NCBI GenBank assembly: GCA_027023305.1
Contig: JALVVR010000041.1
Span: 11,029-75,028, forward strand
Direction of reading: 5' to 3'
Origin: Campylobacterales bacterium
GTDB lineage: Bacteria; Campylobacterota; Campylobacteria; Campylobacterales; QNZT01
DNA length: 64,000 nucleotides
This document shows positions 24,601 through 59,159 of the stretch, piece after piece. The stretch's first letter is position 1, and each line of letters starts with the position of its first letter. Below the pieces are notes generated by a model. The model was not told the DNA's origin. It saw only the letters and a list, made by a program, of their open reading frames with translations, and made no database searches. The position numbers and the translations under genes were made by a program.

Positions 24601-27600
24601 CTACTACTTTGGCTTGAACAGTTGAGTCTGAAAGATTTACATATAATTTTTTACTATTTGAAGCAGTACTTATACTACTATAATCAACTGTATCATTTCC
24701 ATAGTCACTTGTCTTAAGACCACCATAAATAATATCATCACCAGTAGAAGCATAAAATATATCATCTCCTAGATTTGAGCTATCTAGACTATCTCCACCC
24801 TCTAAAATATTATTTTTATTATCACCTTTGATAATATCATCTTTTTTACTTCCTACTATATTTTCAATATTTAATACTATATTACTCTCATCATTAGTAC
24901 CAAAGCCATTTACACCATCGGTATCAACTTTTATATTTTGAGATTGTAAGTTTGCATTGATTGCTTGAGTTCTTGAAGTAAAATCAATAGTGTCTATACC
25001 AGCACCACCATCAATAAAATCATCACCAACTCCACCTATAAGTTTATCATCTCCATCTTTTGCTATTAGAGTATTTGCACTATCATCTCCAATTATAGTA
25101 TCATCTTGAGATGATCCTATAATATTATTTATATCTTCAAGTGTATCAGTTTCACTAGTTCCTACTGCAACTTTATTAACACTTAAGTCTGCACTTATTG
25201 CTGTATCTCTATCATCATAAGCAGCTGTATCATTTGAGTTACTACTACCTTTTATAGTATCATCTCCACCTCTTCCATATAGTGTATCATCTCCTTTTAA
25301 ACCAGAGATAATATTTGCACTACTATCACCTTTTAAGGTATCATCATGATTACTACCTTCTAAGTTTTCAAAGTTTTTAAGAGTATCTTTACCATCTCCT
25401 ACTGTATCTTGCTGTGTTGATATAGATAGATCTACTTTTACACTACTAGACACATCCTTATATGAAACAGTATCATTTCCGTCATTCCCATCTAAAACAT
25501 TATCTTCTGAACTTCCCATAATAGTATCATCATGAGTAGAACCAAGTGCATTTTCTATTGATATTAGTTTATCATTTCCATCTGCTCCACTTGAAGTCTC
25601 ACCTCTTAAATCAACTGTTACACTATCAGTTGCATTTTCATAACTTGTAAAATCAACTCCACTTCCTCCATCTATATAATCACTTTCTAATCCACCAACA
25701 AGAGTATCATCTCCACTTCCACCTATAAGAGAATCTACTCCATCCTCTCCAAGAAGCTTATCATCTCCACTATTTCCTTCTATATAGTCTCTACCTGCTC
25801 CACCTTTTACCTCATCATTTCCACTTCCTGCTAAGATTGTATTTGCCCCATCATTTCCACTTAGGACATCACCATAATCAGAACCTACTAGATTTTCAAT
25901 AGATGAGATATAGTCATTTCCACTTCCACCTGTATTTTGGGTAGTAGCATCTTGGGATATATCTATAGTAATACCAGATGAGGCATCACTAAAATCAGCA
26001 GTATCTTCGCCATCTCCACCAAGTAGAGAGTCATCTCCTGCTCCACCTTTTAGAGTATCATTGTTCTTTCCACCCTCTAAGGTATCATTTCCATCTTTAC
26101 CCTCTAAAAAGTCATTTCCATCTAAACCTTGGATATAATTTGCTTCATTGTTTCCTATAGCTATATCATTACTATTTGTAGCTATTATATTTTCTATTTC
26201 ACTTAAAGTATCACTTCCCTCACCAGTTGCAGTTCCTTGGAAAAGATTTATATCCATTGCAGTATTTACATCACTATAATCAACGGTATCAACTCCATTT
26301 CCTCCACTTATATAGTCATTTCCTAAACCACCTTGTAAAATATCATCTCCAACACCAGCAAAGATTGAGTCATCACCTTTTCCACCATCTATTTTGTCTG
26401 CTCCAGCTCTTCCATAAAGTTTATTTGCTGAGTCATCTCCCTTTATAGAATCATCATGAGAGCTACCAACTATATTTTCTATATTTTGAAGTGCTGCAGT
26501 AAAAGAATCACTTCCTATTTTATAACTTCCAGTTTGATTTGATAAATCAACATTTATAATATCATCTGAAGAGCTAAAATCTACGGTGTCTTCTCCTTCT
26601 CCACCATCAAGAGTGTCATCTCCTCCTGTTGCTAAAAGAGTGTCATTTCCAAATCCACCATCTATGGTATCTGTACCTGCTCCTCCATCAAGAAGATCAT
26701 TTCCTTTCCAACCTTGGATTATATTTGTCTCACTATCTCCTGTGATAGTATCATCCCCGTTGTATCCTATAATATTTTCTATACCCTCAATTGTATCCTT
26801 AGTTCCAAAGCCATCTTTTATAGCTTTGTTTTGCGATAAATCTACTACTACTTTACCTGTTGCTCCTTCATAGTTTACTGTATCATTATCAGCTCCACCT
26901 CTTAGAGTATCATCTCCATATCTACCATAAAGAGTATCATTACCTGCACCACCATCCAAGATATTATCTGCATCATTTCCTTTTATCGTGTCATCATGAG
27001 AGCTTCCTAAAACATTTTCTACATTTATAAATGTATCCATACCTTCTGATTTTGTATCTTGTTTATCTGTGAGTGCTAAGTCAATTTCTGTATCTCCAGT
27101 AGCATTTGTATAATCAACTGTATCACTTCCTTCACCTCCATCAAGAGTATCATCTCCAAGTTTTCCCTCTAAGTAGTCATCTCCTTTTCCACCTTCTAAG
27201 ATGTTATCACCATCATCTCCTCTTAGAGTATCATAATACTTTGATCCTGCAACTCCTTCTATACTATCAAATGTATCACTTCCTTGTCCAGCTCCTATAT
27301 CAACTGAAGCATCTCCACTAAGCTCAACTGTTATAGCTGAATTTGCATTTGAATAATCAGCTATATCTAAACCATCTCCACCATGAAGGAAATCATCTCC
27401 TGCTCCTCCTTGAAGTCTGTCGTTTCCAACTCCTCCATAGAGTATATCTACTCCATCATCTCCTTTTAAAAAGTCTTTACCTACCTCTCCATACAGGGTA
27501 TCAATTCCAGCATTTCCACTGATAGTGTCATCTCCTTGACCTCCCCAGATAGTATTTGTAATATCACTACCTGTTAAGTTATCATTTTGATTTGAACCTT

Positions 27601-30600
27601 TTAAATTTTCAATATTTTCTAACTTATCACTACCATCTCCTGTTGCAACACCATCTTTTAAATTTGCTGTTATGATATTTTGTGATTTTGAAAAGTCAGC
27701 TGTATCTATACCAGCTCCTCCATCAAGATAGTCATCTCCACCATTTCCTACTAGTGTATCTGCACCATCATTTCCAAAAATAGAGTTATTGTTATCATCT
27801 CCTATCAAAGAGTCTGAAGTTGTACTTCCAGAGATATTTTCTATATTTACTAGAGTATCAGTTCCATCTCCTAAAGCTTGATTTTTAGATAAATCAACAT
27901 CTACTGAAGTGTTTAAGTTTGAGAAATCAACTGTATCTCTACCAACTCCACCATCAAGATAGTCATCTCCACTTCCTCCTCTTAGGCTATCATTTCCTAT
28001 ATCTCCATAAAGAGAATCGTCTCCACCATTTCCATATAGAATGTCATTTCCTTTGTTTCCAAAAAGCTTGTTTGAGTTTGCATCCCCACTTAGAGTGTCA
28101 TTTAAGTTTGAGCCTTTTAAGTTTTCTATATCTACTAATTTATCACTTCCTGCTCCTACTGTATGTTGATAGTCAGTTTTTGATAAATCAACTTCAACTC
28201 TTAATGATGCAGAACTATAATCAGCTGTATCTTCTCCTTCTCCACCATCTATAATATCATTTCCAAGTCCACCATCTAAGAGATCTTTTCCCTTATTACC
28301 AAGAAGAGTATCATCCCCATCAAGTCCTAAAAGATAATCATCTCCTAAATCTCCATCAAGTATATTTTTAGCACTATCTCCTGTTATGCTATCATTTGCT
28401 TGAGAACCTATTACATTTTCTATATTTTTTAGAGTATCACTTCCCTCTCCAGTTGCTATGCTATCTTTTAAATTTACCTCAACTGAGTTTGTAAGAGAGT
28501 GAAAGTTTACTGTATCATTTCCAAGTCCACCATCAAGATAATCATCTCCAGCTCCTCCACTTATAGTATCATCTCCATTTTGAGCTAAAATGGTATTGTT
28601 GCTATCATCTCCTATAAGAATATCGGATTCTTGAGAGCCTTTTATATTTTCTATATTTATGAGTGTATCACTTCCCTCTCCTGAAGCTACAGAGTTTTTT
28701 AAGTCAACAGTTACTCCATTTGTAGAATTTGAGTAATCAACCATATCACTGTTTAATCCACCATCTATGATATCATCTCCAGCTCCTCCACTTATAGTGT
28801 CATTTCCATCTTCACCTCTTAAAGTATCATTTCCATCTCTTCCTTCAAGATAATCATCTCCCTTTCCTGCAAAAAAAATATTATTGTTTTGGTCACCTTT
28901 TATTGTATCCTTTGTATCAGTAGCTATAATTTTTTCTACATTTGTTACAGTGTCACTTCCGTCTCCTAGGATTGAATGAGATTGAAGATCAGCCTCTATA
29001 CCTGTATCTAAATATGAATAATCAACAGTATCTATACCATCTCCACCATCTACGGAATCATTTCCACTGCCTGTTTTGAAGTAGTCATTTCCACTATTTC
29101 CTATAAGTGTGTTTGATATATCATTTCCTATCAAGGAGTCATCACTTGATGAACCTATCGCATTTTCGATATTTACAAGTTTATCTGTTCCCTCTCCTAA
29201 GGCTTTTCCACTTCCATCATTTGTATTTGGATCATCTAAGTAGAGAGTAACCCCACTATTTGACTGAGAGTAATCAGCAAAATCACTTCCAACACCACCA
29301 TTAAGAAGATCATCTCCTACTCCACCTCTTAGTGTATCACTTCCGACTCCTCCACGAATTGTATCATCGCCAGCATTTCCACTGATAGTATCATCTCCAT
29401 CTCTACCATCAAGGATATTTACTTTATCATCACCAACAATAATATCACTACTACTACTTCCTAATACATTTTCTATATTTTTAATTACATCATTTCCAAC
29501 TCCAGTTGAGCTTTGATTTAAAAGGTCTATATCTATGCTTGTTGTAGAGTTTACAAAATCTATAACATCTATGCCATCTCCACCATCAATGGTATCATCT
29601 CCATTTCCAGCAAAGATAGTATCATCTCCATTTTGAGCAGTTATAGTATCATTTCCTTCTAGTTCAGTTATAGTGTCATCTGTAGCTCCACCCACTATAG
29701 TAGAATCTCCATGAGATGATATTATGATATTTTCATTTGGTTCTCGTGAAAGTACAAAACCTAAATCTTCATCTCCATTATATTTATAATCATTTGCATC
29801 ATGAATATCTTTTACTTGAATACCAACTGTTTTAGAAGCTGTAAGCTCCTTAATATCAGGTTCATCAATTTTTTTTGGATTTTCAGGATCTTGAACAATA
29901 TTATCTCTGTTAAACTTTGAAGTTAATTCCATATCTATAGAAAAATCATCATGAACAGTTTTACCATTGTATTTTAAAACAACTTCTAATCCATTGTCAG
30001 TTACTTTAAATCCATTAACTGAGTTTTCTACATCTTCTTTATTTATAATCCAATCACTACCACTTTGAGTTCCATTTACTACTGAAAAACCATTTGGCAA
30101 ATCTTTTAAAACTATTTGTTCAACTGCAAAACCCTCTGGTTGAGTAGGATTTATAGATATAAGTTTAGATAAATAATCCCCTTCAAACCAATCAGGGTTA
30201 TCAGCTACAATTTTCATGTTATCATGAGAGCTAGAAAAATCAATAGTTTCTTTTTCCATTTGAGCTTCACCACTATCATCATGTCTTGCCCTTATGCTAC
30301 CTCCTCCTCCATCCACAACTGTTACACCACCTCTAGTAGAGATAGTTTTTTGAGTTTGAAAAAAGTCAACATCAAATTTTAAAAGAGCAGTTACATCAGA
30401 GACATTTACATTATCTTTTGTTTTTGAAGCACTACTATCTTCAAAAGAGGTATAATCAGTAGTAAAATCACTCTCTTGAACTCTAACTGGATCTACCTCT
30501 TCTTCAGCTTTTAAAAGTTTTACCTTAGGAGCATCATCAGTTTTATTAGATGTCATACCCTCCATGATATGTTCTTGTTGTTCTATAACTTTCTCTTTTG

Positions 30601-31036
30601 CAGAGAGTTCTGTATTTATTTTTTTAAATTGTTTCTCTTTTGTTTCAAGTTCTTTTTCTAAATTTTCAACTGAATCTTTAGTAGATACTGCTTGGTCAGT
30701 AGCAAGTGAATCTATCGGTGATTCTTTTACTTCATCGATTTGTGAAAGTATGGATGAGAGTTTAAGTACTTGTCCTGATGGAAGTACTATTTGGGGTGGA
30801 TTCTCTTCAAAAGCCATAACTCCCATAGAGACAAATATAAATTCACCACCATCAGGTAGTTTTACAACTATATCTCCTCCCACTACATTGAACTTAGCAT
30901 GAGATATATCTATATTAAAATGAACTTTATCACCAGGGCGAGTAAATACACTTATACTATCACCACTTTTGGGCTCATTTACAATATTTATATTTTTGTC
31001 TTCATAATTTATATATGGACTTTTGCTTACTGACAT
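6671..31036 (-). CDS. giant RTX-type calcium-binding repeat protein (8,121 aa), predicted T1SS substrate/adhesin
   Basis: One uninterrupted ORF. It has a ~433-aa unique N-terminus, then on the order of 80 modules of the form DYS..V.VDL...G.G.D.L.NIEN.IGS...D.I.G. Each module is followed by GGxGxDx[LIF]x nonapeptides. The C-terminus is an acidic non-repeat tail (...DVDVTLHVAGL). The gene is adjacent to ABC/MFP/TolC genes. Confidence 0.92.
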   Translation of the reverse strand: MSVSKSPYINYEDKNINIVNEPKSGDSISVFTRPGDKVHFNIDISHAKFNVVGGDIVVKLPDGGEFIFVSMGVMAFEENPPQIVLPSGQVLKLSSILSQIDEVKESPIDSLATDQAVSTKDSVENLEKELETKEKQFKKINTELSAKEKVIEQQEHIMEGMTSNKTDDAPKVKLLKAEEEVDPVRVQESDFTTDYTSFEDSSASKTKDNVNVSDVTALLKFDVDFFQTQKTISTRGGVTVVDGGGGSIRARHDDSGEAQMEKETIDFSSSHDNMKIVADNPDWFEGDYLSKLISINPTQPEGFAVEQIVLKDLPNGFSVVNGTQSGSDWIINKEDVENSVNGFKVTDNGLEVVLKYNGKTVHDDFSIDMELTSKFNRDNIVQDPENPKKIDEPDIKELTASKTVGIQVKDIHDANDYKYNGDEDLGFVLSREPNENIIISSHGDSTIVGGATDDTITELEGNDTITAQNGDDTIFAGNGDDTIDGGDGIDVIDFVNSTTSIDIDLLNQSSTGVGNDVIKNIENVLGSSSSDIIVGDDKVNILDGRDGDDTISGNAGDDTIRGGVGSDTLRGGVGDDLLNGGVGSDFADYSQSNSGVTLYLDDPNTNDGSGKALGEGTDKLVNIENAIGSSSDDSLIGNDISNTLIGNSGNDYFKTGSGNDSVDGGDGIDTVDYSYLDTGIEADLQSHSILGDGSDTVTNVEKIIATDTKDTIKGDQNNNIFFAGKGDDYLEGRDGNDTLRGEDGNDTISGGAGDDIIDGGLNSDMVDYSNSTNGVTVDLKNSVASGEGSDTLINIENIKGSQESDILIGDDSNNTILAQNGDDTISGGAGDDYLDGGLGNDTVNFHSLTNSVEVNLKDSIATGEGSDTLKNIENVIGSQANDSITGDSAKNILDGDLGDDYLLGLDGDDTLLGNKGKDLLDGGLGNDIIDGGEGEDTADYSSASLRVEVDLSKTDYQHTVGAGSDKLVDIENLKGSNLNDTLSGDANSNKLFGNKGNDILYGNGGDDSLYGDIGNDSLRGGSGDDYLDGGVGRDTVDFSNLNTSVDVDLSKNQALGDGTDTLVNIENISGSTTSDSLIGDDNNNSIFGNDGADTLVGNGGDDYLDGGAGIDTADFSKSQNIITANLKDGVATGDGSDKLENIENLKGSNQNDNLTGSDITNTIWGGQGDDTISGNAGIDTLYGEVGKDFLKGDDGVDILYGGVGNDRLQGGAGDDFLHGGDGLDIADYSNANSAITVELSGDASVDIGAGQGSDTFDSIEGVAGSKYYDTLRGDDGDNILEGGKGDDYLEGKLGDDTLDGGEGSDTVDYTNATGDTEIDLALTDKQDTKSEGMDTFINVENVLGSSHDDTIKGNDADNILDGGAGNDTLYGRYGDDTLRGGADNDTVNYEGATGKVVVDLSQNKAIKDGFGTKDTIEGIENIIGYNGDDTITGDSETNIIQGWKGNDLLDGGAGTDTIDGGFGNDTLLATGGDDTLDGGEGEDTVDFSSSDDIINVDLSNQTGSYKIGSDSFTAALQNIENIVGSSHDDSIKGDDSANKLYGRAGADKIDGGKGDDSIFAGVGDDILQGGLGNDYISGGNGVDTVDYSDVNTAMDINLFQGTATGEGSDTLSEIENIIATNSNDIAIGNNEANYIQGLDGNDFLEGKDGNDTLEGGKNNDTLKGGAGDDSLLGGDGEDTADFSDASSGITIDISQDATTQNTGGSGNDYISSIENLVGSDYGDVLSGNDGANTILAGSGNDEVKGGAGRDYIEGNSGDDKLLGEDGVDSLIGGSGDDTLVGGLESDYIDGGSGVDFTSYENATDSVTVDLRGETSSGADGNDKLISIENALGSTHDDTIMGSSEDNVLDGNDGNDTVSYKDVSSSVKVDLSISTQQDTVGDGKDTLKNFENLEGSNHDDTLKGDSSANIISGLKGDDTLYGRGGDDTIKGSSNSNDTAAYDDRDTAISADLSVNKVAVGTSETDTLEDINNIIGSSQDDTIIGDDSANTLIAKDGDDKLIGGVGDDFIDGGAGIDTIDFTSRTQAINANLQSQNIKVDTDGVNGFGTNDESNIVLNIENIVGSKKDDIIKGDNKNNILEGGDSLDSSNLGDDIFYASTGDDIIYGGLKTSDYGNDTVDYSSISTASNSKKLYVNLSDSTVQAKVVDNSASDFSNPDFTDTLYGIENIIGTHEGSDTIKGDNSSNILVGLGGDNIIDGNDGDDYIYGGSQDLSGTQDGTNTLYGAKGEDKIHGGNSVDNIFGGDDSDTIYGEDGNDIIDGESGVDSIFGGSGNDTIMLKGDGDIVDGGAGSHDRVDYSSLSNKIELTLEGSSQKDVKVDGITTDKVKNIEDVITGSGDDTITGDTLKNYIETGNGDDKLDGGANSDTLKAGAGDDILKGGAGEDILLGGAGSDILDGGDGIDIIDGGESIDDHDSINFSSSTDFVELNLNNIDTEGFSTAYIGGQADDKIKNIEDIKGSTHDDKIVADSDNNSIDGNVGNDTIIAERGDDTVSGGSGNDIFIAGIDSDGDAFDTDGEIEDGDDGSDVYDGGSDNDTVDYSHISKSIDVTLNGANDATVTINTYANDTVKNIENIIGSSVSDTLKGDAEDNTLDGYKGDDYLFGGAGNDELRGGEGQDTADYSSADDRIVVDLTDENNDNYQVDFDGAGGKDKLVDIEKILGSSHDDTIKGGSLADTLYGNGGKDTLVGKGGEDYLYGDDGDTTNDSDIDEVRYDYISDSSYKVAVDLSGTNIEGHNAVVYDGSNNVTNDKDFLFDIENIIGSIGDDTLTGSSDNNNIKAGNGKDILDGKEGSDNLLGEAGDDTFIAHDNDGRDVIDGGSGIDSVDYSAVTKKVEINLADDDGVSTVKVDNTDEDSLKNIENIIGGVNNDNLSGNNQKNKIEGGAGKDIIKGGEGDDTLYGNDGDDELNGDEGNDTLYGQKGSDTFISSAGNDIYDGSGDDSGDIDTVDFKDATGPITIDMQETGSQIVGGGQGSDTFIDIEKIKGSGYNDTFKSAYDQDNIFDGAGGNQDTVSYLDNLAVDDTTQDRVEVDLANNKSDIYIDGTKTATDTLTNIENTDGSKGDDRFKGDSGANAFDGKDGVDTLSYEDYTTSLDVDFETSHAKISDSDDDTFTSIEKVIGSQSDDTFKMYGGNRDVDGHSGSDTVDYSKYTTGVEVNFATNTSSESDKFANIENAIGGSGNDIFKTDTGVENRFDGNTGTDTADYSHITNSITVTLDGSNDATVTVADSQNDVIKNIENIKGSTVNDDITGDSGANELSGNAGDDIIKGEAGKDTIHGDDGVDILYGGDDDDTIYGDKGDDTLIGNKGSDTLDGGEGSDLANYTLASNKINADLNDSDGNGFQVDNDGDGSSDRLSNIEGIIGSKYDDTLKGSNSNDTLYGYKGQDYLVGNDGEDLIYGGSTDGSDTSVDTISYDYITDGSYKAVVDLTGTNIDGHNAVIYDGSAVETNDKDFISGVENVIGSAGDDTITASDVVNTIKGGAGKDVIDGKNETDNLYGEAGDDIFIAHIGDGNDIVDGGDGSDTVDYSDLDNTHNISITLADDDNTSTIKVDGSDEDTISHIENVVATAGNDYIKGNKADNMLDGQAGDDEFISTAGNDFYKGGDGVDTVDFSTSTAGISIDAAETDYQNVGGGADSDKFESIEKYIGGSYSDTFKSAENQNNIFDGGADESNETQNGGKGDTVSYEKINVNDVTKDYVNVDLTDEKSDIFKNGSKEAEDTLLKIENILGSDGNDIFKGDANANSFDGKDGTDTLVYNYVTNSDILTADFKNLTAQIGNGSDSDTFSSIEKIVGTKNDDIFKIYGGNKAIDGGSSGEDTVDYSYYNSSVKVDFSKNSSSEGDSFTSIEKAIGGDGDDTFITNTSVANNFNGNLGSDTVDYSGIDKAITVTLNGSGEATVTVADLQNDTVSNIENITGSTVSDSIAGDDNVNILDGNSGDDNIDGKAGNDTLIGGDGEDIIHGGSDHDRIYGDEKLTDESGTLSNNDTIYGESGNDTIYGGGGDDFLDGGIGNNSLYGQKGDDILKGGSNNDLIDGGSGTDTVDYSDASSGIRVSLGTEEEQNVGGGQGSDTLKSIENAIGSSYNDTFTTNHEQSNKIDAKGEESSGGDTIDYSDMTDSNDVISLDLSQTDGKGYTEVSVTKGGESKPKDYIKDIENVIGSSGKDQIKADNKDNTIQAGDGDDLLVGNGGDDNLQGGAGSDTSSYEYVTNGSVSVDIANSKVVVDSTDSDTINSIENFIGSSGDDYFKTATGNIANSFDGKDGSDTIDYSNYSDDLTIKLGKSSAQTIKSGDEDTITNIENLTTGSGDDSLFGDENNNSLLGGAGNDTFYMGGYDDSSDTLVDTNDGVDFVDGEDGTNDTINYSVISKNIDVTLNTTAQTDVVINGYDNDKIVNIENFIGGSGDDNIVGDTAINTLKGGAGSDILDGAEGNDHLEGGSGDDIIKGGAGNDYFDGGDGEDIVDYSLSSAPVTVDLGRTTSQHINSEQGDDTLINIENVKGSSHDDKFYTDITSNNKFDGNDGSDTIDYSDKLTEADDSISVDLTSLTDGYADVTVHDNDGSNTTDKLKNIENVVGTAGNDIIKGDDSDNTIKGGSGDDRLFARGGNDYLDGGDGDKDWADYSANSENNIVIDLTKETATYGAYTDTLRNIELIAGSNQTDTIIGKDSTNNTLVGNGGNDTIEAKTGTNYIYGDSLDGSGSGSDTVSYENIDEAMIVNLSSGSGKNINGDGNHVNDTLSSIENVIGTSHDDIFFSTDGVDNTIKAGEGSDLIHYSSGENNLFDGEAGVDTIDFSLKADGSTNSDKVELTLNTVNSATIKVAGSDSGDVKNVENVIGGSGDDTITGDTANNTLKGGAGNDILDGASGKDEIYGESGVDILKGGNDDDKLYGGDDNDTLYGGADNDELHGGSGDDSLKGDDGDDLLYADAGSDTLYADRGDDTLDGGDDIDEVNFSSSLSKVVVDLKDRDNDDYGTASSSDTGSDKLKNIENVVGSNLNDTITGDSLSNTLKGAEGDDTFLIKDLESTTDTLYGDGGSDMVDYHLLTSGHVEVELANSGVTTSSIKDGSNSYDDKLYDIENITGTSNKDIITGNSLVNILAGGDEADTLKGKAGDDTLEGGSGDDTLEGGSGADKIVGGAGVDLVSYDSDTTGVIVNLKTGTNSAGDAQGDVISGVENILGGSGNDKLTGNDIANTIMGGAGQDTLYGGLGNDILIATKETGQAGDGDFAGYTGQNKIKVDLLDDPNSVIVDNDNNGWDDSDEKDTLYGISNIIGSDYADEIKGSDDSNTLRGGAGADVIEGGKGSDTLEGDEGGDLFKQDKSNLDNLADNIDGGADVDTIDYSSFGDSSNSTKGGIRGELKGGTASDLVLDYDSDGDFTDSSDNKTDSVKNIENLILTQSDDSIVGSATSNFIQANSGDDTISAGEGNDTLYGGDGKDYLAGDAGDDSLRGDGGSDTIFGGTGKDIIYGGDNTDNSDLNDIEILEGGFGDDTIYGEGGQDNIKGGDGADTLDGGSGNDILEGGAGNDEIDGGDGVDTASFLSSLTDVQVDLNGGLTDQDGNGDYNAASTHHGYDHLTNIENIIGSNIGNDILKGSSGANSIYGAGGNDTIDGRDGDDTLSGGYGNDTFIVKEGDGTDTIDGGNEVDGTSGSDTVDYSAVTKTVELDLANADASATAKIDGNNEDTITHIENIIGGTAKDTLTGNIDTNIINGGDEADTIYGEDGVDTLSGDSGDDSIDGGDGNDTIIGDSGDDTLSGGIGADKIFGGDENGVDDSLNDTVSYSYVTNNANHAVINLKSKEGKVVDGSGAVVAGDSDELRDIENALGSSGDDTIIGSDTTNILEGGAGIDTLEGLKGADTLIGGSGTDTNNYADYRSENKIQVTLNTATSTSTVKVDADDTDGNEWNGANDEADTISYINNILGSDGGSDEITGNDDKNIFYGYAGDDKLDAKGGADTIYAGVGDDEITGGSGADLIYGQDGEDLIKASASDDGVDKIDGGDGNDTVDYSAITDSSNYLTINLGDSPDADGFITADLHNGDDDKIKNIENVTATAGNDNITGNASSNTLKGMDGVDSIDGKKGDDLIYGGANDSLESLLGGAGNDTIYGEAGEDTISGGDGDDTIDGGDANDIISGGAGDDKIKGGSETYSSGEGGDWVSYAGVTDSVTINLQGKFASSSTQGNDILDSIENVIGGKAGDVITDSGDQASGDKANNTIKAGAGNDTITEQDGNDKIYGEGDNDTIIAGIGDDYLDGGVGNDTVDYSQIKDFVADSEDDRDADGSGADKDSSDAYDGIEVDLTVSGSQRVHAQAGNDTLVGIENVIGSDLKDYIKGNSEDNILKGGADNDVLVGDDGKDTLYGESDDDTLFGGKGDDILDGGAGSDSVDYGYVDSAYSDADHIEADLNGDTYIKKADNSNLEHDTMTSIENYKGFDGVDIVKGTAGKNIIYGRDGDDIISSGTNEDYLYGGDGNDTFILSDNGKNTVYGGEASGDSGKDTVSYKDSGTAVTVEWNNNESKYEATTTQADELNGIEVVKGTNLADTLKGYKGTDTTISHEDSFFGGAGNDYLSGGAGEDYLDGGAGVDIILDHLGVDTLKGGGDSGDTIDFSQMDSSYHMNIDLSENSAIEVKNDDANSTFSNTIDGFNVIKATEENDTIKGSESQDTIFGGAGDDLIKATIGGDVIHGGDSTLGDTLTFAEVSDADSDNSGVIVDMGAGTASGDAGNISFDGIEHIIGTTVNDSLTGNSQNNSISGLDGVDVIDGKGGDDTLLGGSGDDTIFGGDGSDYFDAGDGINDYLSYKDIDVGDNKIVVDLSSEKIVSDGFGSTDEVAKGFENLVATKNDDTLTGNSSANTIFGENGNDLIHGNEGSDDLRGGLGDDKIYGDSGNDLISGEEGSDTLYGGDGEDFIKGGDGNDFIYGKRSDDSSSDTLKDTLWGGAGIDTVYANDGDVVNVYDGGDGSSNGDREDGDTIDLSRIGSKSIIDLSSNTLTIDGNSNSSEVYDFNIVNGSSNIDVIKGNLASDIKDTLKGNSGNDTFLASDGSDRIEGGSDEDTYDFSGLSLTSSDAGVEVIMKDSGDSTASGSGVGSSTFVEIEDIVGSNAKDTITGNSSINTILSGDGDDTIFGSDGKDYLDAGSGNNDWLSYKNVNTGSKNIVVELNNNLIKENGFDDTDLTAKGFEHIWATDNNDTITGNSLSNSILGKDGIDTIYGDGGDDYIYGGLKGDTIYGDDGDDKLHGETGGDTIYGGKGVDTIYGGGGNDYLYGGAEANTSEDGYSDTLYGNTGSDRLFVSDNKDNKTVYNGGDDEDFLDLSRVTKDSYIDLSLTSNNLSIDKQSDTSKMSDVLNIEDIYGSSHNDTIKGSDSDESFYGNGGDDLFIMSDGTDYVDGGSGSDWADISNKSDGDIKLNNHSIGQTKSYNVENIIDDDDENEGYLDDNNNTVVANGGNDTWYAKGGDDVINLGDGNDSVNGGDGSDILYGGSGSDILDYYWWMDHGLKLDTANATKVSKTYYTDVGVSTTADFYEVEDDGNGNKDYILGFESIRGSDYNDTIKVDSDINYISTNDGDDIIEAGAGDDIVYAGAGQDNVKGGSGNDHIYAEGGNDIVDDGSGDDYVDLGYGNDSLVANAGKDELHGGSDWDVIDFKNASSGINVDLSNNKILFDGFDSSNETIDGFEHLNATDNADTYKGLSGTDVVYMQGGDDTIIYSGGDDSIYGGDGSDWMDISSADVNVDTYHSHKVGDANSVYGVENFYDGDDSNSDASNIYLGSEDNIIISGGGNDTMYASGGTNIINAGSGDDNIGLWYGSDIVDGGDGIDTANNYYDSYVEVDFSDESHTKTVYTDMDKTQKSDSDYVEIKVGGTATDYVRDIEKYEGSNDSTGDTITMGHDLYYVRGYAGDDKIYGRDGGDDEIHGDGDNDTIYGYAGKDTIYGDNANDKLYGGAGDDKLYGGAGDDKLYGGAGDDLLDAGTGSDVVNGDGGNDTFVVDFSNLANISLDGGADSDSVNINGNTGTDITSDTAFGFNSNLNNIETLDFTNLTLNVGDDTSNGGSKAEYTIDGEWIHDLTDSNNDLTINLDSDDASKLEFTDKNNVKYGGDDNGTTAITNGDYTLHDSTNDVDVTLHVAGL
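7164..7244 (-). repeat. perfect 27-bp tandem repeat x3 (encodes GGAGDDKLY x3)
   Basis: tcatctcctgctcctccataaagctta occurs three times back to back (7164-7190, 7191-7217, 7218-7244). The unit is in frame (27 = 9 codons). Confidence 0.95.
7420..10670 (-). repeat. C-terminal mosaic of two distinct repeated module types (order X-X-Y-X-Y)
   Basis: Type X (D[YW]LSYK...NIVV[DE]L...GF[DG]..D....GFE[NH]L/I.AT[KD]N[DN]DT) occurs at about 10.6 and 9.6 kb. A shorter, more divergent copy (DVIDFKNASSGINVDL...GFEHLNATDNADT) lies at about 8.1 kb. Type Y (GSDW.DIS...VEN....DD...) occurs at about 8.88 and 7.90 kb. Confidence 0.7.
15662..15715 (-). repeat. perfect 27-bp tandem repeat x2 (encodes GDDTLEGGS x2)
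   Basis: gcttcctccctctagggtgtcatctcc occurs at 15662-15688 and again at 15689-15715. Confidence 0.95.
19368..23435 (-). repeat. higher-order super-repeat: two colinear ~2.0-kb (~670 aa) units inside the giant gene
   Basis: The marker module DYS(H/G)I..(I/A)(D/T)VTL(N/D)G...ATVT recurs at about 23.41, 21.42 and 19.39 kb. The about 7 modules between markers are colinear between the two units, for example YDYI(S/T)D(S/G)SYK(V/A)(A/V)VDL(S/T)GTNI(E/D)GHNAV and GGG(Q/A)(G/D)SD(T/K)F..IEK. The antisense shadow ORFs 19215..19403 and 21240..21422 are also homologous to each other. Confidence 0.8.
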
Positions 31037-31067
31037 TAGTATCCTTTGAAACTTTTCTCTATGCTCA

Positions 31068-31093
31068 ATATCGGCAATTTTTTAAATACTTTA
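31068..31093 (-). promoter_or_regulatory. sigma28 (FliA)-type promoter in front of the giant RTX gene
   Basis: The minus strand reads TAAAGTAT-N10-GCCGATAT, against the enteric consensus TAAAGTTT-N11-GCCGATAA. The -10 element ends 31 nt upstream of the ATG at 31036. AAGGA serves as the RBS. Confidence 0.55.
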
Positions 31094-31162
31094 ATTAAAT
31101 ACTATAAAAAATTTGAATTATTTTCTTTTTGCATAAAAATTACTAAATTTAGATAATTTAAT

Positions 31163-31189
31163 TAAAAAATTATTTGAATTTGTCGATAT
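31163..31189 (+). promoter_or_regulatory. sigma28-type promoter in front of the tolC-like gene
   Basis: TAAA-N15-GTCGATAT. The -10 element ends 32 nt upstream of the ATG at 31222. RBS is AAGGAA. Confidence 0.4.
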
Positions 31190-31221
31190 AAATAGATAAT
31201 AGATTAAAGTCAAGGAATTTT

Positions 31222-32847
31222 ATGGATAAATTTTTATATTCAGCAGTTGCACTCAGTGCTATATTTGCTATATCTTTACATGCTAGTAATAGTATAAGCT
31301 TAGGAGAGTTTAAAAGTTATAGTATCGCAAAAAAAATAGTAAAAAAATATCCCAATAGCCAAATTATCATGATTGAAAATAGCCATGGAGTACCTATTTA
31401 TAAAGTTTTAATAAATCCTGAGAATAAAACAATAAAAAAACAAAAAAATATAGTTTCAAAAAAAAGAATTTTTAAGATAAAAGAAACTCCAAAAGAAGAA
31501 GTTATAGATATAAATAAAAAGATAAAGCCTATTGTAAAAAAGGTTGTAAAAGATAAAAAAGTAAATATTCATGATAGTCATAGTGGCATAACTTTACATG
31601 AAGCTATACTTATAGCTTTAAAAAAATCAAATAAAATAATGGCAGCAAGAGAAAAAGTAGTACAAGCAAAAAGAGTTTTAGATGAAAAATATGGTGCTTT
31701 TAAGCCGAAAGTTGACTTTATGGCAAATAGCAATAGAATAAGAGTTAAACCAAAAGATGAAGAAAGAACTGTATATAGTAAAAATGATTATACTCTATCA
31801 CTTAAACAAAATATTTATGCTGGTGGGAAAAATATAGGTGAGTTAAAAAGAGAAAAAGCTAACCTTAAAGTTGCTGAGTCAAAGTTTAAACAAAAAGTAG
31901 AAGAGGAAACAACAAAGATTATAGATGCATACTATGCACTTATATACCAAACTAAAAGTATAAATATTACTAAAAAGAATATGAAGCTTTTAGAAAAAAT
32001 ACTAAATATAGTAAAAATCAAAGAGCAAAATGGTGCAGCTACAAAGGGTGATTTAAACTATATAAAATCCCAAATTGAAAATGCCTCAAGTGAACTTATA
32101 AAACAAAAATCTCTGTATCAAAATTCACTTTCAATGTATGAGTATTTTGTAGGCAAAGATAGTTCTTTACTACCTATTGAGGAGAAAATAGAGTATAAGA
32201 AATTTGATAAAAAAAATCTTTTAAATATCTTAAATAATAACAACTCTAAAATAGAAGTAGCTAAAGCAAAAATTGAAACTGAAAAATATAATTTATCTTC
32301 ATTAAAGTCAAAATTTAAACCTACAGTTGACTTTACTATCAGAGATAGAGGAAAGTTTACAAACTCTGATGTAGAACCATCTGAAAAAAGGACAACTGGG
32401 ATTTTAACACTAAATTATAATATATATAATGGTGATAAAGACAAATCTAAAATACTTGGTTCAAAAAGTAAAATCTTAGAGTTAAAATACAAGCTTGTTG
32501 ATTTGGAAGATAGCATGAAGTTTAACTTAAAACAAATATATGAAACTACAATATCTAGTCAAGATAGTATGCTTCATACAAAAAAAGAGGTTGATGCAAA
32601 CAAAAAAGTGATAGATTCTTACTGGAATGCTTTTAAGTATGGTTCTCAAGATATACAAGCTCTAATGCTTGCACAAAGAGCATTAAATCGTTCGGAATTA
32701 GACTTAATAAAAGAGAAACAAAAATATACTTCTAACTACTTCAATCTTTTAAAAGTTAGTGGGATATTACTTGATGAATTACATATCAATGACTTCATAG
32801 ACTCATCAAAGATGACTCAAGATGAGTCTATAAACTATTTATATTAG
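31222..32847 (+). CDS. TolC-family outer membrane factor with a ~110-aa N-terminal extension
   Basis: 541 aa. Signal peptide MDKFLYSAVALSAIFAISLHA. From about residue 120 the sequence is TolC-like: ITLHEAILIALKKSNKIMAAREKV...YGAFKPKVDF, a second repeat at KFKPTVDF, and coiled-coil heptads. The gene is divergent from the T1SS substrate gene. Confidence 0.85.
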   Translation: MDKFLYSAVALSAIFAISLHASNSISLGEFKSYSIAKKIVKKYPNSQIIMIENSHGVPIYKVLINPENKTIKKQKNIVSKKRIFKIKETPKEEVIDINKKIKPIVKKVVKDKKVNIHDSHSGITLHEAILIALKKSNKIMAAREKVVQAKRVLDEKYGAFKPKVDFMANSNRIRVKPKDEERTVYSKNDYTLSLKQNIYAGGKNIGELKREKANLKVAESKFKQKVEEETTKIIDAYYALIYQTKSINITKKNMKLLEKILNIVKIKEQNGAATKGDLNYIKSQIENASSELIKQKSLYQNSLSMYEYFVGKDSSLLPIEEKIEYKKFDKKNLLNILNNNNSKIEVAKAKIETEKYNLSSLKSKFKPTVDFTIRDRGKFTNSDVEPSEKRTTGILTLNYNIYNGDKDKSKILGSKSKILELKYKLVDLEDSMKFNLKQIYETTISSQDSMLHTKKEVDANKKVIDSYWNAFKYGSQDIQALMLAQRALNRSELDLIKEKQKYTSNYFNLLKVSGILLDELHINDFIDSSKMTQDESINYLY

Positions 32848-32855
32848 AGATAAAT

Positions 32856-33500
32856 CTACTTTATAATCGTAATCTTTACAAATCCATTTGGGTATTTTTT
32901 ATCCATATTTTTAGAGATTTTCATGACAACATTTGAAGAGTATTTTGAAACAGTATTTCTAACAGAGATTGCACGAGAGAGTGCTATCTGTTTAGCATAG
33001 GTTTTGGAAGCCATATTTGTAGCTAATCCTAAAGTAATCAAAACTTTTTTATCTTTATATTTTTTTACAAAAGATTTTAGTTTTGATTTTATACTTGATT
33101 TTAGAAAAAGCTCTTTTGTATCATAAGATATGATAAATACTCCACCTTTTATAAAAGTTTCTTGATTTATTTTTTTGGATTTATCAGATGTAACAGTTAT
33201 TGCATTTCCATCACTTTTTCCACCTTCAAACAGTGAGTCTCGTCCTGCTGTTGCCATTTTTGGCTTTTTGATTTTTGGTAAAGAAATCATGTTAGTTGAA
33301 TCAACTCCTGCTTGAAGAGAGGCAGTTGTTGATTTTACTGTTGCCTGAGAGTTACTTTTTGAGTTAAACTGCATATAATATGCAACATTTACAATCATAA
33401 CCATAACAAAAAGCAAAAGTACCAAAATCACTGATGAGAAAACATCAACAAATGGTGGCCATGGATTAAACTCTTCTTCGCATTGTTTTGCTCTAGCCAT
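32856..33500 (-). CDS. MotB/ExbD/TolR-family membrane protein with a degenerate OmpA-like C-terminal domain
   Basis: 214 aa. PWPPFVDVFSSVILVLLLFVMV has the conserved Asp at the start of a single TM helix, the plug/ion-binding Asp of ExbD/TolR/MotB. The C-terminus ...ITLGLATNMASKTYAKQIALSRAISVRNTV... echoes the OmpA_C motif N..LS..RA..V. An 8-nt overlap links it to the upstream gene. Confidence 0.65.
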   Translation of the reverse strand: MARAKQCEEEFNPWPPFVDVFSSVILVLLLFVMVMIVNVAYYMQFNSKSNSQATVKSTTASLQAGVDSTNMISLPKIKKPKMATAGRDSLFEGGKSDGNAITVTSDKSKKINQETFIKGGVFIISYDTKELFLKSSIKSKLKSFVKKYKDKKVLITLGLATNMASKTYAKQIALSRAISVRNTVSKYSSNVVMKISKNMDKKYPNGFVKITIIK

Positions 33501-34764
33501 AATACTCTTCTTCTTTTAGTGAATTTTCAAAATGATTTTGCATAAAGTCAATTTTTTGCTTACTGTCATGATAGACTTTATTTTCACTATTGATTAAATC
33601 TTTTAACTTATTATATTCACTCTTTTGCCCTGCTACTACTTCTACAAGTTGATATATATCGAGTGAGTTTTGTTCTTGTTTTTTAAGAAAAGATTTTTGA
33701 GTTTGCTTAATCTCTTCATAAGAATTTTTAAAATTTTTAAGCTCAGCTAATGAATCTTTTTGCAAAATAACACTAGCTTTCGCATACTTGTTGTTTTTAT
33801 CTATATATGAATTTATATCATTGCTTTGTTTTAAAAGAGTATTTAAGCTATGAGTTAACTCTTTACTAATCTTTTTATCCTCTTGCATCTGTGCTATCAT
33901 GACTTCAACAACTGATGAAATTTTTTGTTCTACTTTTTTATTTGAATATGAAACTTGATTTATCTCTTTTGTTAAATGAGAAATCTTATCTAAAAATATA
34001 TCCACAAAACTTTGTTGATGAGCTTCTAAGGAGTTAGCAGGAGTTAAGGCTACTGCTCCACTTTCATCAGGAGAGGTTTCTAAAGTTATTTTATTTAACC
34101 AGTTTTCAACTCCTTCACTTAGATTTGCTTGAGCTTTGTTTAAAAGATACCCCTTTATACTCATCAAAATAGCAGATATTACCCCAAACAGTGATGAACC
34201 AAAACCAACAGCCATACTTCCAAGAGGTCCAGCAAATCCTGCCATAATTTTACCTATGTCAACATTACTTCCTGCAAGAGATTTTACAATCCCACCCATA
34301 CTTCCGATAGCTCCCAAAAGTCCAGCAAATGTTCCTAGTAGTCCTATCATCAAAACTGTACCTATAAAAAAGTTATTATATTTGTTTTGATTAGCAAATG
34401 TATCACTCATCCAAGCTAAAAGGTCTTCTTTTTCTTGTTGAGTAAACATTAAATTTCCGCCTTCCACTCTTTTTAAAATCTTATCTGCAAAATTTGTAGG
34501 AAGTACTTTTTCTATACCTTTTAGATAAAAAGAGATGTTATTTTTTTTATACATCAAAACACCAAAAGTTCCAGCCATCATGACAATCTCTTTTGCAGCT
34601 CTTAAAAGCATAAAAGTTCCTATCGCTAAAAGAGAAACTATAGCTATGTTAAATGTAAGTGTAGAGGTAAAGTATATTACAAATGTATCCCAATTTGCAA
34701 CAGCTATAAAATAAACAAAAAGCCATAAAATAAAATAAGCTTTAAAAATTTTTATTCTTTTCAT
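33493..34764 (-). CDS. MotA/ExbB/TolQ-family ion-channel protein with a ~200-aa C-terminal coiled-coil tail
   Basis: 423 aa. The GTVLMIGLLGTFAGLLGAIGSM ... GPLGSMAVGFGSSLFGVISAILMSIKGYL pair of TM helices matches the MotA_ExbB signature (GLLGT.xG). Residues from about 225 to the end are K/E/Q-rich with heptad character. Confidence 0.65.
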   Translation of the reverse strand: MKRIKIFKAYFILWLFVYFIAVANWDTFVIYFTSTLTFNIAIVSLLAIGTFMLLRAAKEIVMMAGTFGVLMYKKNNISFYLKGIEKVLPTNFADKILKRVEGGNLMFTQQEKEDLLAWMSDTFANQNKYNNFFIGTVLMIGLLGTFAGLLGAIGSMGGIVKSLAGSNVDIGKIMAGFAGPLGSMAVGFGSSLFGVISAILMSIKGYLLNKAQANLSEGVENWLNKITLETSPDESGAVALTPANSLEAHQQSFVDIFLDKISHLTKEINQVSYSNKKVEQKISSVVEVMIAQMQEDKKISKELTHSLNTLLKQSNDINSYIDKNNKYAKASVILQKDSLAELKNFKNSYEEIKQTQKSFLKKQEQNSLDIYQLVEVVAGQKSEYNKLKDLINSENKVYHDSKQKIDFMQNHFENSLKEEEYYG

Positions 34765-34773
34765 TTTTTACCT

Positions 34774-35725: not shown

Positions 35726-35752
35726 ATATCGGCAATATAATTAAAAGTTTTA
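35726..35752 (-). promoter_or_regulatory. sigma28-type promoter in front of the Cache-like/MotA-like/MotB-like operon
   Basis: The minus strand reads TAAA-N15-GCCGATAT. The -10 element ends 31 nt upstream of the ATG at 35694. The extended -10 region (TTGCCGATATT) is identical to the one at the giant gene promoter. Confidence 0.55.
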
Positions 35753-45519: not shown

Positions 45520-45596
45520 GGGTCTATAGCTCAGTTGGTTAGAGCACTCGGCTCATAACCGAGTGGTCCCAGGTTCGAATCCTGGTGGACCCACCA
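45520..45596 (+). tRNA. tRNA with anticodon CAT (elongator Met, or Ile2 if lysidinylated)
   Basis: I folded the 77-nt cloverleaf by hand. Acceptor stem GGGTCTA/TGGACCC, D arm GCTC/GAGC, anticodon stem CTCGG/CCGAG with loop CTCATAA (CAT at 45554-45556), T arm CCAGG-TTCGAAT-CCTGG, and an encoded CCA. The G1-C72 pair rules out an initiator tRNA. Confidence 0.93.
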
Positions 45597-46495: not shown

Positions 46496-46506
46496 ATATA
46501 ACTCTC

Positions 46507-49034: not shown

Positions 49035-49037
49035 AAT

Positions 49038-58613: not shown

Positions 58614-58622
58614 CTTCTCTCC

Positions 58623-59132: not shown

Positions 59133-59159
59133 ATATCGGTATCTAAGAAAAAAACTTTA
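59133..59159 (-). promoter_or_regulatory. sigma28-type promoter in front of the CheZ-like gene pair
   Basis: The minus strand reads TAAAGTTT-N11-ACCGATAT. That matches the enteric FliA consensus TAAAGTTT-N11-GCCGATAA at 14 of 16 positions with exact spacing. Confidence 0.6.

What the first reader, a model, noticed from the sequence alone, without database searches (positions are those of the whole stretch)
31037..31221. Back-to-back sigma28 (FliA)-type promoters drive the giant RTX gene and its tolC
The 185-bp divergent intergenic region contains two matches to the sigma28 consensus. On the minus strand, TAAAGTAT-N10-GCCGATAT lies with its -10 element ending 31 nt from the giant gene ATG. On the plus strand, TAAA-N15-GTCGATAT lies with its -10 element ending 32 nt from the tolC ATG.

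The extended -10 region TTGCCGATATT is identical to the one in front of the MotA/MotB-like operon (35726-35733). An almost perfect TAAAGTTT-N11-ACCGATAT sits in front of the CheZ-like genes (59133-59159).

By my rough base-composition estimate, GCCGATAT should occur about once by chance on both strands of 64 kb. Two of its three occurrences sit at promoter distance in the small intergenic fraction of the window. fliN and fliO lie just downstream of the T1SS genes.

This suggests the 8,121-aa protein and its secretion channel are late flagellar-regulon genes. The flagellum-regulated RTX hemagglutinin FrhA of Vibrio cholerae is a precedent.
Basis: partly seen in the sequence, partly recalled or inferred. 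Interest (0 to 1): 0.72.

Follow-up and report, generated by a model that had tools for sequence, protein, structure and literature searches.

The report
Flagellar-type promoters on giant adhesin genes
Two back-to-back promoters of the kind read by the flagellar sigma factor sit in front of a giant calcium-binding adhesin gene and its outer-membrane channel gene, so this uncultured Campylobacterales bacterium probably makes its adhesin when it finishes building its flagellum; this type of control is known, here it is a well-conserved new example.

Summary

They are more than chance:
- GCCGATAT occurs 3 times against 0.19 expected.
- A matrix built only from nine experimentally defined C. jejuni FliA promoters ranks the giant-gene element third in the window, above every simulated window.
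- The tolC element is borderline on score alone. It is kept in all eight orthologous loci I could recover.
- The same element precedes the giant gene, tolC and a three-gene accessory operon in three different gene orders.
- It is absent from the distant homologous cluster of Malaciobacter, a lineage that has lost FliA.

Two corrections:
- The "MotA/MotB-like operon" is not a flagellar stator. It encodes a dCache sensor, a TolQ/ExbB-like channel and a MotB-like anchor, always next to the adhesin secretion genes, which recalls Salmonella SiiAB.
- The third GCCGATAT also lies at promoter distance, before an S41 peptidase gene.

Independent flagellar evidence is therefore thin: a conserved promoter before cheZ. 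No fliA gene could be checked. Its presence is inferred from gene-order markers.

Verdict: supported in silico, a new member of a known kind, moderate interest.

The parts
31068..31093 (-). Sigma28-type promoter of the giant RTX gene: -35 TAAAGTAT (31086-31093), -10 GCCGATAT (31068-31075). Predicted transcription start about 31059-31062.
   Evidence: Sequence. It scores 19.6 bits on a matrix built from C. jejuni FliA promoters, rank 3 of the window and above the maximum of 100 simulated windows, 18.1. It is kept before the giant-gene orthologue in L001, L007, L011, L019, L021 and L023.
31163..31189 (+). Sigma28-type promoter of tolC: -35 TAAA (31163-31166), -10 GTCGATAT (31182-31189). Predicted transcription start about 31195-31198.
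   Evidence: Sequence. A 33-nt block is almost identical in L001, while the rest of the spacer diverges. The element is present before tolC in all 8 loci. The matrix score is 12.4 bits, borderline alone. The -10 region resembles C. jejuni flaG, AAATTTGTCGATATAAG.
31042..31046 (-). AAGGA ribosome-binding site of the giant gene, 5 nt before the ATG.
   Evidence: Sequence. AAGGA is the C. jejuni ribosome-binding consensus (PMC3656092).
31212..31216 (+). AAGGA ribosome-binding site of tolC.
   Evidence: Sequence.
6671..31036 (-). Giant RTX protein gene, 8121 aa.
   Evidence: ORF. HemolysinCabind repeats score E 5e-75 and 2.5e-68 in the first and last 1200 aa. The N-terminal 110 aa are conserved in L001 and L007.
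31222..32847 (+). TolC-family outer-membrane channel gene, 541 aa.
   Evidence: Pfam OEP E 1.9e-41. TIGR01844 type_I_sec_TolC E 5.6e-40, below its curated cut-off.
1564..6627 (-). TPR protein (4909-6627), T1SS ABC permease/ATPase (2793-4934) and HlyD-type adaptor (1564-2796), directly downstream of the giant gene.
   Evidence: TIGR03375 LssB-type E 1.5e-196, just below its cut-off; TIGR01843 type_I_hlyD E 2.5e-105, above its cut-off. No terminator-like site on the minus strand between the giant-gene stop and these genes.
35726..35752 (-). Sigma28-type promoter of the three-gene accessory operon (TAAA-N15-GCCGATAT).
   Evidence: Matrix score 21.8 bits, rank 2. An element is kept before the orthologous gene in 8 other loci.
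32856..35694 (-). Accessory operon: 306-aa two-TM dCache-like sensor (34774-35694), 423-aa TolQ/ExbB-like channel subunit with a coiled-coil tail (33493-34764), and 214-aa MotB/TolR-like protein with an invariant Asp19 (32856-33500).
   Evidence: Of 36 family members, 33 match PF01618. Foldseek top hits are TolQ/ExbB. The dCache fold is supported. The operon is always next to tolC and a giant RTX gene.
59133..59159 (-). Sigma28-type promoter before the tandem cheZ-like genes (TAAAGTTT-N11-ACCGATAT).
   Evidence: It is conserved in L015 and L016. The matrix score is only 8.4 bits.
57933..59099 (-). Two tandem CheZ-like genes. The corrected start of the first is 59099.
43397..43423 (-). Sigma28-type element 38 nt before the S41 C-terminal processing peptidase gene (42054-43358).
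   Evidence: It has the top matrix score in the window, 22.7 bits. It lies in glyS coding sequence, so its conservation in L008 is uninformative.

Best explanation
The 185-bp spacer holds two divergent, functional promoters of the sigma28 (FliA/SigD) class. One reads leftward into the giant RTX adhesin gene, and probably on into the TPR, ABC and HlyD genes. The other reads rightward into tolC. A third promoter of the same class drives the neighbouring accessory operon (dCache sensor, TolQ/ExbB-like channel, MotB-like anchor). So every transcription unit of this type I secretion system shares one sigma-factor input.

In Campylobacterota with the ancestral flagellar programme, FliA is held inactive by FlgM until the hook-basal body is finished. 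The adhesin and its export machine would therefore be made together with flagellin and cheZ, in cells that have just become motile.

Shown here: the sequence elements, their geometry, their enrichment, their match to proven C. jejuni FliA promoters, and their conservation.

Inferred: that FliA exists in this genome, that it reads these sites, and the timing that follows from that.
For: 1. Elements and geometry. The -10 ends 31, 32, 31, 38 and 33 nt before five start codons. This gives 5' leaders of about 23-27 nt with AAGGA ribosome-binding sites, as in C. jejuni, where the start site lies 6-9 nt after CGATNN.
2. Enrichment.
3. A non-circular test. A matrix built from nine published FliA-dependent C. 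jejuni promoters (PMC3656092 Table S6) puts the S41, accessory-operon and giant-gene sites at ranks 1-3, with 22.7, 21.8 and 19.6 bits. The best of 100 simulated windows was 18.1. The giant-gene extended -10, TTGCCGATATTGA, equals that of Cj0977.
4. Footprinting. In L001 (TolC 61% identical) both elements stand out in a diverged spacer. In L006, L007, L011, L019, L021 and L023 the gene order differs, but tolC, the accessory operon and the giant gene each keep their own element. Of 20 unit starts in 130 kb, 17 match the pattern against 0.08 expected. These are orthologues, so this is not a true probability.
5. A sigma-70 consensus scan finds no better alternative in the spacer: 1 weak hit against 3.6 in shuffles.
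6. Lineage. Rho is closest to Sulfurospirillum, Sulfurospirillaceae and Hydrogenimonas MAGs, not Arcobacter. The window carries cheZ-trhP and fliNO, gene orders that mark F3-class Campylobacterota; all of those keep FliA and FlgM (PMC9321776).
7. Negative control. The homologous cluster in Malaciobacter marinus (Arcobacteraceae, which lost FliA) has no CGAT element within 100 nt upstream of its accessory operon.
8. A chemotaxis gene (cheZ) carries a conserved element of the same class.
Against: - No fliA or flgM gene, flagellin promoter, transcription start site or expression datum from this organism could be examined.
- The tolC element alone is not above noise on the C. jejuni matrix, and the cheZ element scores only 8.4 bits.
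- The orthologous loci are related, so repeated presence partly reflects shared descent.
- The negative control is a single spacer from a 27%-identical homologue. A second distant cluster of unknown taxon (L027) also lacks the element, although a GTCGATAT sits before a neighbouring gene there. The link may therefore be confined to one clade.
- Two giant-gene orthologues (L019, L021) have a weak -35, CAAA or ACAA.
- The AT-rich spacer may hold additional sigma-70 extended -10 promoters that the simple scan cannot see.
Confidence: 0.7

Rival explanations
1. The sites are true sigma28-class promoters but are read by a FliA-like paralogue or another alternative sigma factor dedicated to the adhesin system. 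They would then not be gated by the FlgM/hook-basal-body checkpoint, and the genes would not be 'late flagellar' genes.
For: All three strongest sites serve the adhesin system or a peptidase, not a flagellar structural gene. The only motility-related site, cheZ, scores low at 8.4 bits. The genome could not be searched for sigma factors.
Against: F3-class Campylobacterota are reported to keep a single FliA/FlgM pair (PMC9321776). The cheZ element is conserved in three genomes with a canonical TAAAGTTT -35. The -10 regions are near-identical to those of C. jejuni FliA targets flaG, Cj0977 and Cj0391c.
Confidence: 0.12
2. The matches are chance products of AT-rich intergenic DNA. Transcription starts at ordinary sigma-70 extended -10 promoters elsewhere in the spacer.
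For: The spacer is very AT-rich, so TAAA is trivial to find. The tolC site alone is at noise level on the matrix. In C. jejuni many FliA-like motifs occur at internal or antisense start sites.
Against: GCCGATAT occurs 3 times against 0.19 expected. The giant-gene site scores above all simulations. The elements are the conserved islands in diverged spacers, and they follow each gene through rearrangements. The sigma-70 scan gives fewer hits than shuffles.
Confidence: 0.05
3. The conserved TTG(C/T)CGATAT blocks are operators for a DNA-binding regulator of the adhesin cluster, not sigma-factor recognition elements.
For: The two -10 blocks in the spacer are inverted copies of each other. Conservation alone does not distinguish an operator from a promoter.
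Against: Each site is single and always oriented towards the gene. It sits at a fixed 29-49 nt from the start codon, with TAAA 14-16 nt upstream. That is promoter geometry rather than a dyad operator. The same element precedes unrelated genes (cheZ, the S41 peptidase).
Confidence: 0.05

Closest known systems
FliA (sigma28)-dependent class III promoters of Campylobacter jejuni, including those of non-flagellar 'flagellar co-expressed determinants' (Feds), Cj0977 and flaG
   Same: Same element: TTT-N10-12-CGAT[AT/TT/TA], often TAAA-N15-(G/T)CCGATAT. Near-identical extended -10 sequences, similar short leaders and AAGGA ribosome-binding sites. The same phylum, and the same logic of putting non-flagellar surface or colonisation factors under FliA.
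   Different: The target here is a complete type I secretion system with an 8121-aa RTX protein, which C. jejuni lacks. Dependence on FliA is predicted, not measured. The organism is an uncultured Campylobacterales near the Sulfurospirillaceae.
FrhA, the flagellum-regulated RTX hemagglutinin of Vibrio cholerae
   Same: A large RTX adhesin whose expression falls in flrA, flrBC and fliA mutants, placing it as a class 4 flagellar gene (Syed et al. 2009, as summarised in PMC6890996).
   Different: For FrhA the link runs at least partly through the diguanylate cyclase CdgD and c-di-GMP, and it differs between strains. Here canonical sigma28 elements sit directly on the adhesin gene, on tolC and on the accessory operon. 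The phylum is different, and no LapD/LapG genes are in the window.
Salmonella SPI-4 SiiABCDEF: giant adhesin SiiE, its T1SS, and the SiiAB proton channel
   Same: A giant adhesin T1SS locus that also encodes a MotA/ExbB/TolQ-like membrane protein and a roughly 210-aa MotB-like protein with one TM helix, a critical Asp and a peptidoglycan-binding-type domain (10.1101/641415). [quoted passage not shown] Here a dCache sensor is encoded in the same operon.
   Different: A profile search of PDB sequences found no SiiA hit. The sensor is a stand-alone two-TM protein, not a chemoreceptor. In my recollection, not checked here, SPI-4 is controlled through HilA and SprB rather than by a sigma28 promoter. 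The function of the module here is untested.
LapA / LapBCE / LapDG adhesin system of Pseudomonas
   Same: A giant repetitive RTX adhesin exported by an LssB-type ABC transporter, an adaptor and a TolC-like channel. A conserved N-terminal domain could act as a retention plug.
   Different: No LapG protease or LapD receptor is among the window's ORFs. An ExbB/MotB-like module takes the accessory position. In my recollection, not checked here, Lap regulation runs through c-di-GMP and FleQ rather than sigma28.

Membership tests
Sigma28 (FliA/SigD)-class promoter | -10 element CGAT followed by AT, TT or TA, usually (G/T)CCGATAT | tested here: met
   GCCGATAT at 31068-31075 (-) and GTCGATAT at 31182-31189 (+). 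The definition is from PMC3656092 Table S6.
Sigma28 (FliA/SigD)-class promoter | -35 element TAAA(GTTT), 14-16 nt upstream of the extended -10 | tested here: met
   TAAAGTAT-N10 and TAAA-N15. This feature carries little information in DNA that is 70% A+T.
Sigma28 (FliA/SigD)-class promoter | Scores above chance with a matrix built from experimentally proven FliA promoters of a related organism | tested here: inconclusive
   The giant-gene site scores 19.6 bits, above the maximum of 100 simulations (18.1): met. The tolC site scores 12.4 bits, about the mean simulated maximum (12.6): not significant alone.
Sigma28 (FliA/SigD)-class promoter | Element conserved at orthologous genes while flanking spacer DNA diverges | tested here: met
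   7 of 7 giant-gene, 8 of 8 tolC and 9 of 9 accessory-operon starts carry a CGAT-type -10. Two giant-gene elements have a weak -35.
Sigma28 (FliA/SigD)-class promoter | A FliA-family sigma factor and FlgM are encoded in the genome | not testable with these tools
Presence is inferred from the cheZ-trhP and fliNO markers of F3-class Campylobacterota, all of which keep FliA and FlgM (PMC9321776).
Sigma28 (FliA/SigD)-class promoter | Transcription starts 6-9 nt after the hexamer and is lost in a fliA mutant | not testable with these tools
   This needs dRNA-seq or 5'-RACE and genetics.
RTX adhesin with dedicated T1SS | RTX nonapeptide repeats, plus an adjacent ABC transporter, membrane-fusion protein and TolC-like channel | tested here: met
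LapA-type (LapD/LapG-controlled) adhesin | LapG periplasmic protease and LapD c-di-GMP receptor encoded with the system | tested here: not met
   None of the 35 ORFs of at least 100 aa that I scanned matched such families. They could lie outside the window.
SiiAB-type T1SS accessory proton channel | MotA/ExbB/TolQ-like inner-membrane subunit encoded in a giant-adhesin T1SS locus | tested here: met
   PF01618 matches 33 of 36 family members. Foldseek top hits are TolQ and ExbB, TM-score 0.5-0.66 on the target. Linkage to tolC and the giant gene is seen in 8 loci, including Malaciobacter.
SiiAB-type T1SS accessory proton channel | MotB-like partner of about 210 aa: one TM helix with a conserved Asp, a linker, and an OmpA-like peptidoglycan-binding domain | tested here: inconclusive
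   The 214-aa protein has an invariant Asp19 at the start of its TM helix. The OmpA match is only E 0.018.
SiiAB-type T1SS accessory proton channel | Detectable sequence homology to SiiA or SiiB | tested here: not met
   A profile of the 214-aa family against PDB sequences gave no SiiA hit. The SiiA periplasmic-domain crystal structure is reported in 10.1101/641415, but I did not confirm that it is in this PDB copy. SiiB could not be compared.
Flagellar stator MotAB | Four-TM MotA with a FliG-contacting cytoplasmic domain, linked to flagellar genes | tested here: not met
   The best structural matches are three-TM TolQ/ExbB. MotA appears only at ranks 43 and 48 with a lower TM-score. The operon is always next to T1SS genes, not flagellar genes.

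The most novel reading that the evidence does not exclude
The sigma28 elements mark a previously undescribed, widely conserved Campylobacterota adhesion machine. It would combine a giant RTX adhesin T1SS with a built-in module of a ligand sensor (stand-alone dCache protein), a proton-driven 5:2 motor (TolQ/ExbB-like with a long coiled-coil tail) and a peptidoglycan anchor. All parts would be switched on by the flagellar checkpoint. A newly motile cell would then carry an adhesin whose release or retention is decided by a periplasmic signal and powered by the proton-motive force. This would be a hard-wired version of what Salmonella achieves with CheM and SiiAB.
Probability: 0.2. Interest if true: 0.75.

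Novelty: new member of a known kind. Interest (0 to 1): 0.45.

Why it matters
If confirmed, this would be a direct, promoter-level link between completion of the flagellum and production of a giant adhesin, its outer-membrane channel and its accessory motor. In Vibrio cholerae FrhA the corresponding link is known only genetically and is partly indirect.

It gives a simple, testable rule for when free-living and vent-associated Campylobacterales switch from swimming to sticking.

It also flags a conserved sensor plus ExbB/MotB-like module as part of type I secretion outside Salmonella. That may help explain what SiiAB-type channels do.

On present evidence it remains a prediction, and the regulatory principle itself is already established.

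Tried and rejected
- Scans of genome contigs and metagenome contigs with TolC gave only 4 and 2 loci, several without the upstream region.
- The exact look-up of the window's own 423-aa protein found nothing on record. Cluster look-ups gave no names or accessions.
- Single-sequence and profile searches of the 423-aa and 214-aa proteins against PDB sequences returned only coiled-coil noise and no MotA, ExbB, MotB or SiiA. Fold comparison was needed instead.
I repeated it with database homologues.
- Rfam and tRNA scans show nothing in the spacer.
- The sigma-70 consensus scan offers no convincing alternative promoter. That tool does not model the Campylobacter-type extended -10, so it is weak evidence.
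- I considered treating conservation of the S41 element in L008 as support and rejected it. The glyS 3' end is about 95% identical throughout.
- I considered L027 as a second FliA-less control and rejected it. Its taxon is unknown and it carries a GTCGATAT before another gene.

Full report
**Observation**

The spacer 31037-31221 separates the ATG of an 8121-aa ORF (6671-31036, minus strand) from the ATG of a TolC-family gene (31222-32847, plus strand).

On the minus strand it reads TAAAGTAT-N10-GCCGATAT, with the -10 at 31068-31075, 31 nt from the ATG. On the plus strand it reads TAAA-N15-GTCGATAT, with the -10 at 31182-31189, 32 nt from the ATG. Both genes have an AAGGA ribosome-binding site 5 nt before the start codon.

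The giant protein carries RTX nonapeptide repeats at both ends. It is followed on the same strand by a TPR protein, an LssB-type T1SS ABC transporter, a HlyD-type adaptor, a rhodanese, fliN and a FliO-like ORF. No terminator-like site lies between the giant gene and the transporter genes.

**Is it more than chance?**

GCCGATAT occurs three times against 0.19 expected. TAAA-N14-16-NCGATAW occurs twelve times against 0.63 expected.

Of 18 CGATAT hexamers, four lie in the 4.8% of the window that is intergenic, and all four face a start codon. A fifth (43397) lies 38 nt before the ATG of an S41 peptidase gene, inside the end of glyS. So all three GCCGATAT copies, not two, are at promoter distance.

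The cheZ element abuts an ATG that is not conserved in relatives. The true start is 33 nt downstream. The five -10-to-ATG distances are 31, 32, 31, 38 and 33 nt.

Table S6 of Dugar et al. 2013 (PMC3656092) lists nine C. jejuni promoters with previously described FliA dependence; for seven of them a transcription start site was detected in that study, 6-9 nt after the CGATNN hexamer.

I built a matrix from those nine sequences only and scanned both strands of the window. Results:

| Site | Score (bits) | Rank |
|---|---|---|
| S41 peptidase | 22.7 | 1 |
| Accessory operon | 21.8 | 2 |
| Giant gene | 19.6 | 3 |
| tolC | 12.4 | 5 |
| cheZ | 8.4 | 12 |

The best score in 100 Markov-simulated windows was 18.1, and the mean best score was 12.6. 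The top three sites are therefore significant. The tolC and cheZ sites are not significant on score alone.

The giant-gene extended -10, TTGCCGATATTGA, is identical to that of Cj0977. The tolC one, AATTTGTCGATATAAA, nearly matches flaG.

A sigma-70 consensus scan of the spacer finds one weak hit against 3.6 in shuffles.

**Conservation**

TolC-based and homologue-based searches recovered orthologous loci from uncultured Campylobacterales.

- In L001 (TolC 61% identical, same gene order) the two elements are the conserved islands of a diverged spacer.
- In L007, L011, L019, L021 and L023 the order is tolC, then divergently the accessory operon, then the giant gene.
- In L006 tolC and the accessory operon are co-directional.
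- In all of them each unit keeps its own TAAA-N14-16-(G/T/A)CGAT(A/T)(T/G) element, 29-49 nt before its start.

Seventeen of 20 unit starts in 130 kb match the strict pattern, against 0.08 expected. These loci share ancestry, so the figure measures conservation, not independent events.

The cheZ element is kept in L015 and L016.

**What the 'MotA/MotB-like operon' is**

- The 423-aa protein belongs to a family in which 33 of 36 members match PF01618, MotA/TolQ/ExbB. Its AlphaFold model (pLDDT 73) finds TolQ and ExbB first, then PomA, ZorA and MotA. It adds a coiled-coil tail of about 170 aa.
- The 214-aa protein has an invariant Asp19 at the start of a single TM helix and a weak OmpA-like C-terminus.
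- The 306-aa protein (pLDDT 86) is a two-TM protein with a periplasmic dCache-like domain and no cytoplasmic output.
- This trio sits next to tolC and a 4,400-8,900-aa giant ORF (several run off the locus end) in every locus with enough flank, including Malaciobacter marinus.

It is therefore an accessory module of the adhesin secretion system. It is analogous to Salmonella SiiAB (10.1101/641415) and to the CheM-SiiAB link (10.1101/2021.05.14.443827). It is not a flagellar stator, so it does not count as independent flagellar evidence. Sequence homology to SiiA was not detected.

**Does the organism have FliA?**

This could not be tested directly.

Rho is closest (79-84% identity) to proteins labelled Sulfurospirillum, Sulfurospirillaceae, Hydrogenimonas and 'Epsilonproteobacteria bacterium'.

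The window carries cheZ-cheZ-trhP (a U32 peptidase) and fliN-fliO. Mo et al. 2022 (PMC9321776) report cheZ-trhP and cheX-fliNO as marker gene orders of F3-class Campylobacterota; no cheX was found next to fliN here. They report that FliA, FlgM, RpoN and FlgRS are conserved in all such species and lost in all Arcobacter (see also PMC2147049).

In line with this, the distant homologous cluster of Malaciobacter marinus (Arcobacteraceae) has no CGAT element in the 100 nt before its accessory operon.

A second distant cluster of unknown taxon also lacks the element.

**Mechanism**

The best reading is that FliA-RNA polymerase starts transcription at about 31059-31062 (minus strand) and 31195-31198 (plus strand). 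The adhesin, its channel, the accessory motor and cheZ would then be expressed once FlgM has been exported through a finished hook-basal body. This is the same checkpoint that controls flaA and the Fed proteins in C. jejuni (PMC11187230).

The elements, their geometry and their conservation are shown. The sigma factor, the start sites and the timing are inferred.

Rival readings are a dedicated FliA-like paralogue (0.12), chance matches with sigma-70 promoters elsewhere (0.05), and a regulator operator (0.05).

**Comparison and novelty**

Sigma28 control of non-flagellar surface factors is established in C. jejuni. Flagellar control of a giant RTX adhesin is established genetically for V. cholerae FrhA (PMC6890996).

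A literature search found no report of sigma28 promoters on an RTX adhesin T1SS in Campylobacterota.

This is a new member of a known kind. The accessory sensor-motor module is the more unusual by-product.

Noticed in passing
window 43397-43423 (-), gene 42054-43358: The best sigma28-type score in the whole window (22.7 bits) lies 38 nt before an S41 (Ctp/Prc-type) C-terminal processing peptidase gene, inside the last codons of glyS. A peptidase co-regulated with the adhesin system would be worth testing. Conservation in L008 is uninformative, because the glyS 3' end is about 95% identical there.
   Followed up: partly
window 32856-35694 (-): A three-gene operon encodes a stand-alone dCache-like two-TM sensor, a TolQ/ExbB-like subunit with a coiled-coil tail of about 170 aa, and a MotB/TolR-like protein with an invariant Asp19. 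It is linked to tolC and a giant RTX gene in every locus with enough flank, including Malaciobacter marinus. It resembles Salmonella SiiAB plus a sensor.
   Followed up: yes
window 4909-6627 (-): A TPR protein lies between the giant gene and the ABC transporter. Residues 293-363 give a weak match to TibC/Aah-type heptosyltransferases. The counterpart in Malaciobacter is a TPR plus Methyltransf_21 protein. It may be an adhesin-modifying enzyme.
   Followed up: no
window 57933-59132 (-): There are two tandem CheZ-like genes upstream of trhP (U32). The mechanically listed start of the first (59132) is wrong. The conserved start is 59099.
   Followed up: yes
window 45520-49861: tRNA-Met (45520-45596) is followed by an Mrr-like endonuclease gene, a NYN-domain gene and, further on, a UPF0175/PIN toxin-antitoxin pair. 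This may be a small islet of mobile or defence genes.
   Followed up: no
L008 9071-11912 (GCA_054006155.1): A close relative (accessory proteins 83-87% identical) keeps the accessory operon and its TAAA-N15-GCCGATGT element, but has no tolC or giant gene beside it. The position of the 26-kb adhesin block varies between close genomes.
   Followed up: partly
L008 18263-18289 (+); L017 14453-14479 (-) and 20590-20616 (-): Further sigma28-type elements at promoter distance occur in relatives, before a SPOR/outer-membrane beta-barrel gene, an unknown 212-aa gene and a TPR gene. The predicted regulon may therefore include several envelope proteins.
   Followed up: no
L011 8889-8925, L019 8897-8933, L021, L023 (tolC leaders): The first 16 nt after the tolC -10 (AAAAATGAAAGAATTT) are identical in four loci. 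In L021 the gene caller took that ATG as the start. This could be a conserved leader element or a tiny upstream ORF.
   Followed up: no
L024 15626-17821 (Malaciobacter marinus): In the Arcobacteraceae version of the cluster all genes are co-directional, and a GGDEF/EAL protein follows a 920-aa TolC with a SPOR domain. This hints at c-di-GMP control there in place of sigma28.
   Followed up: no
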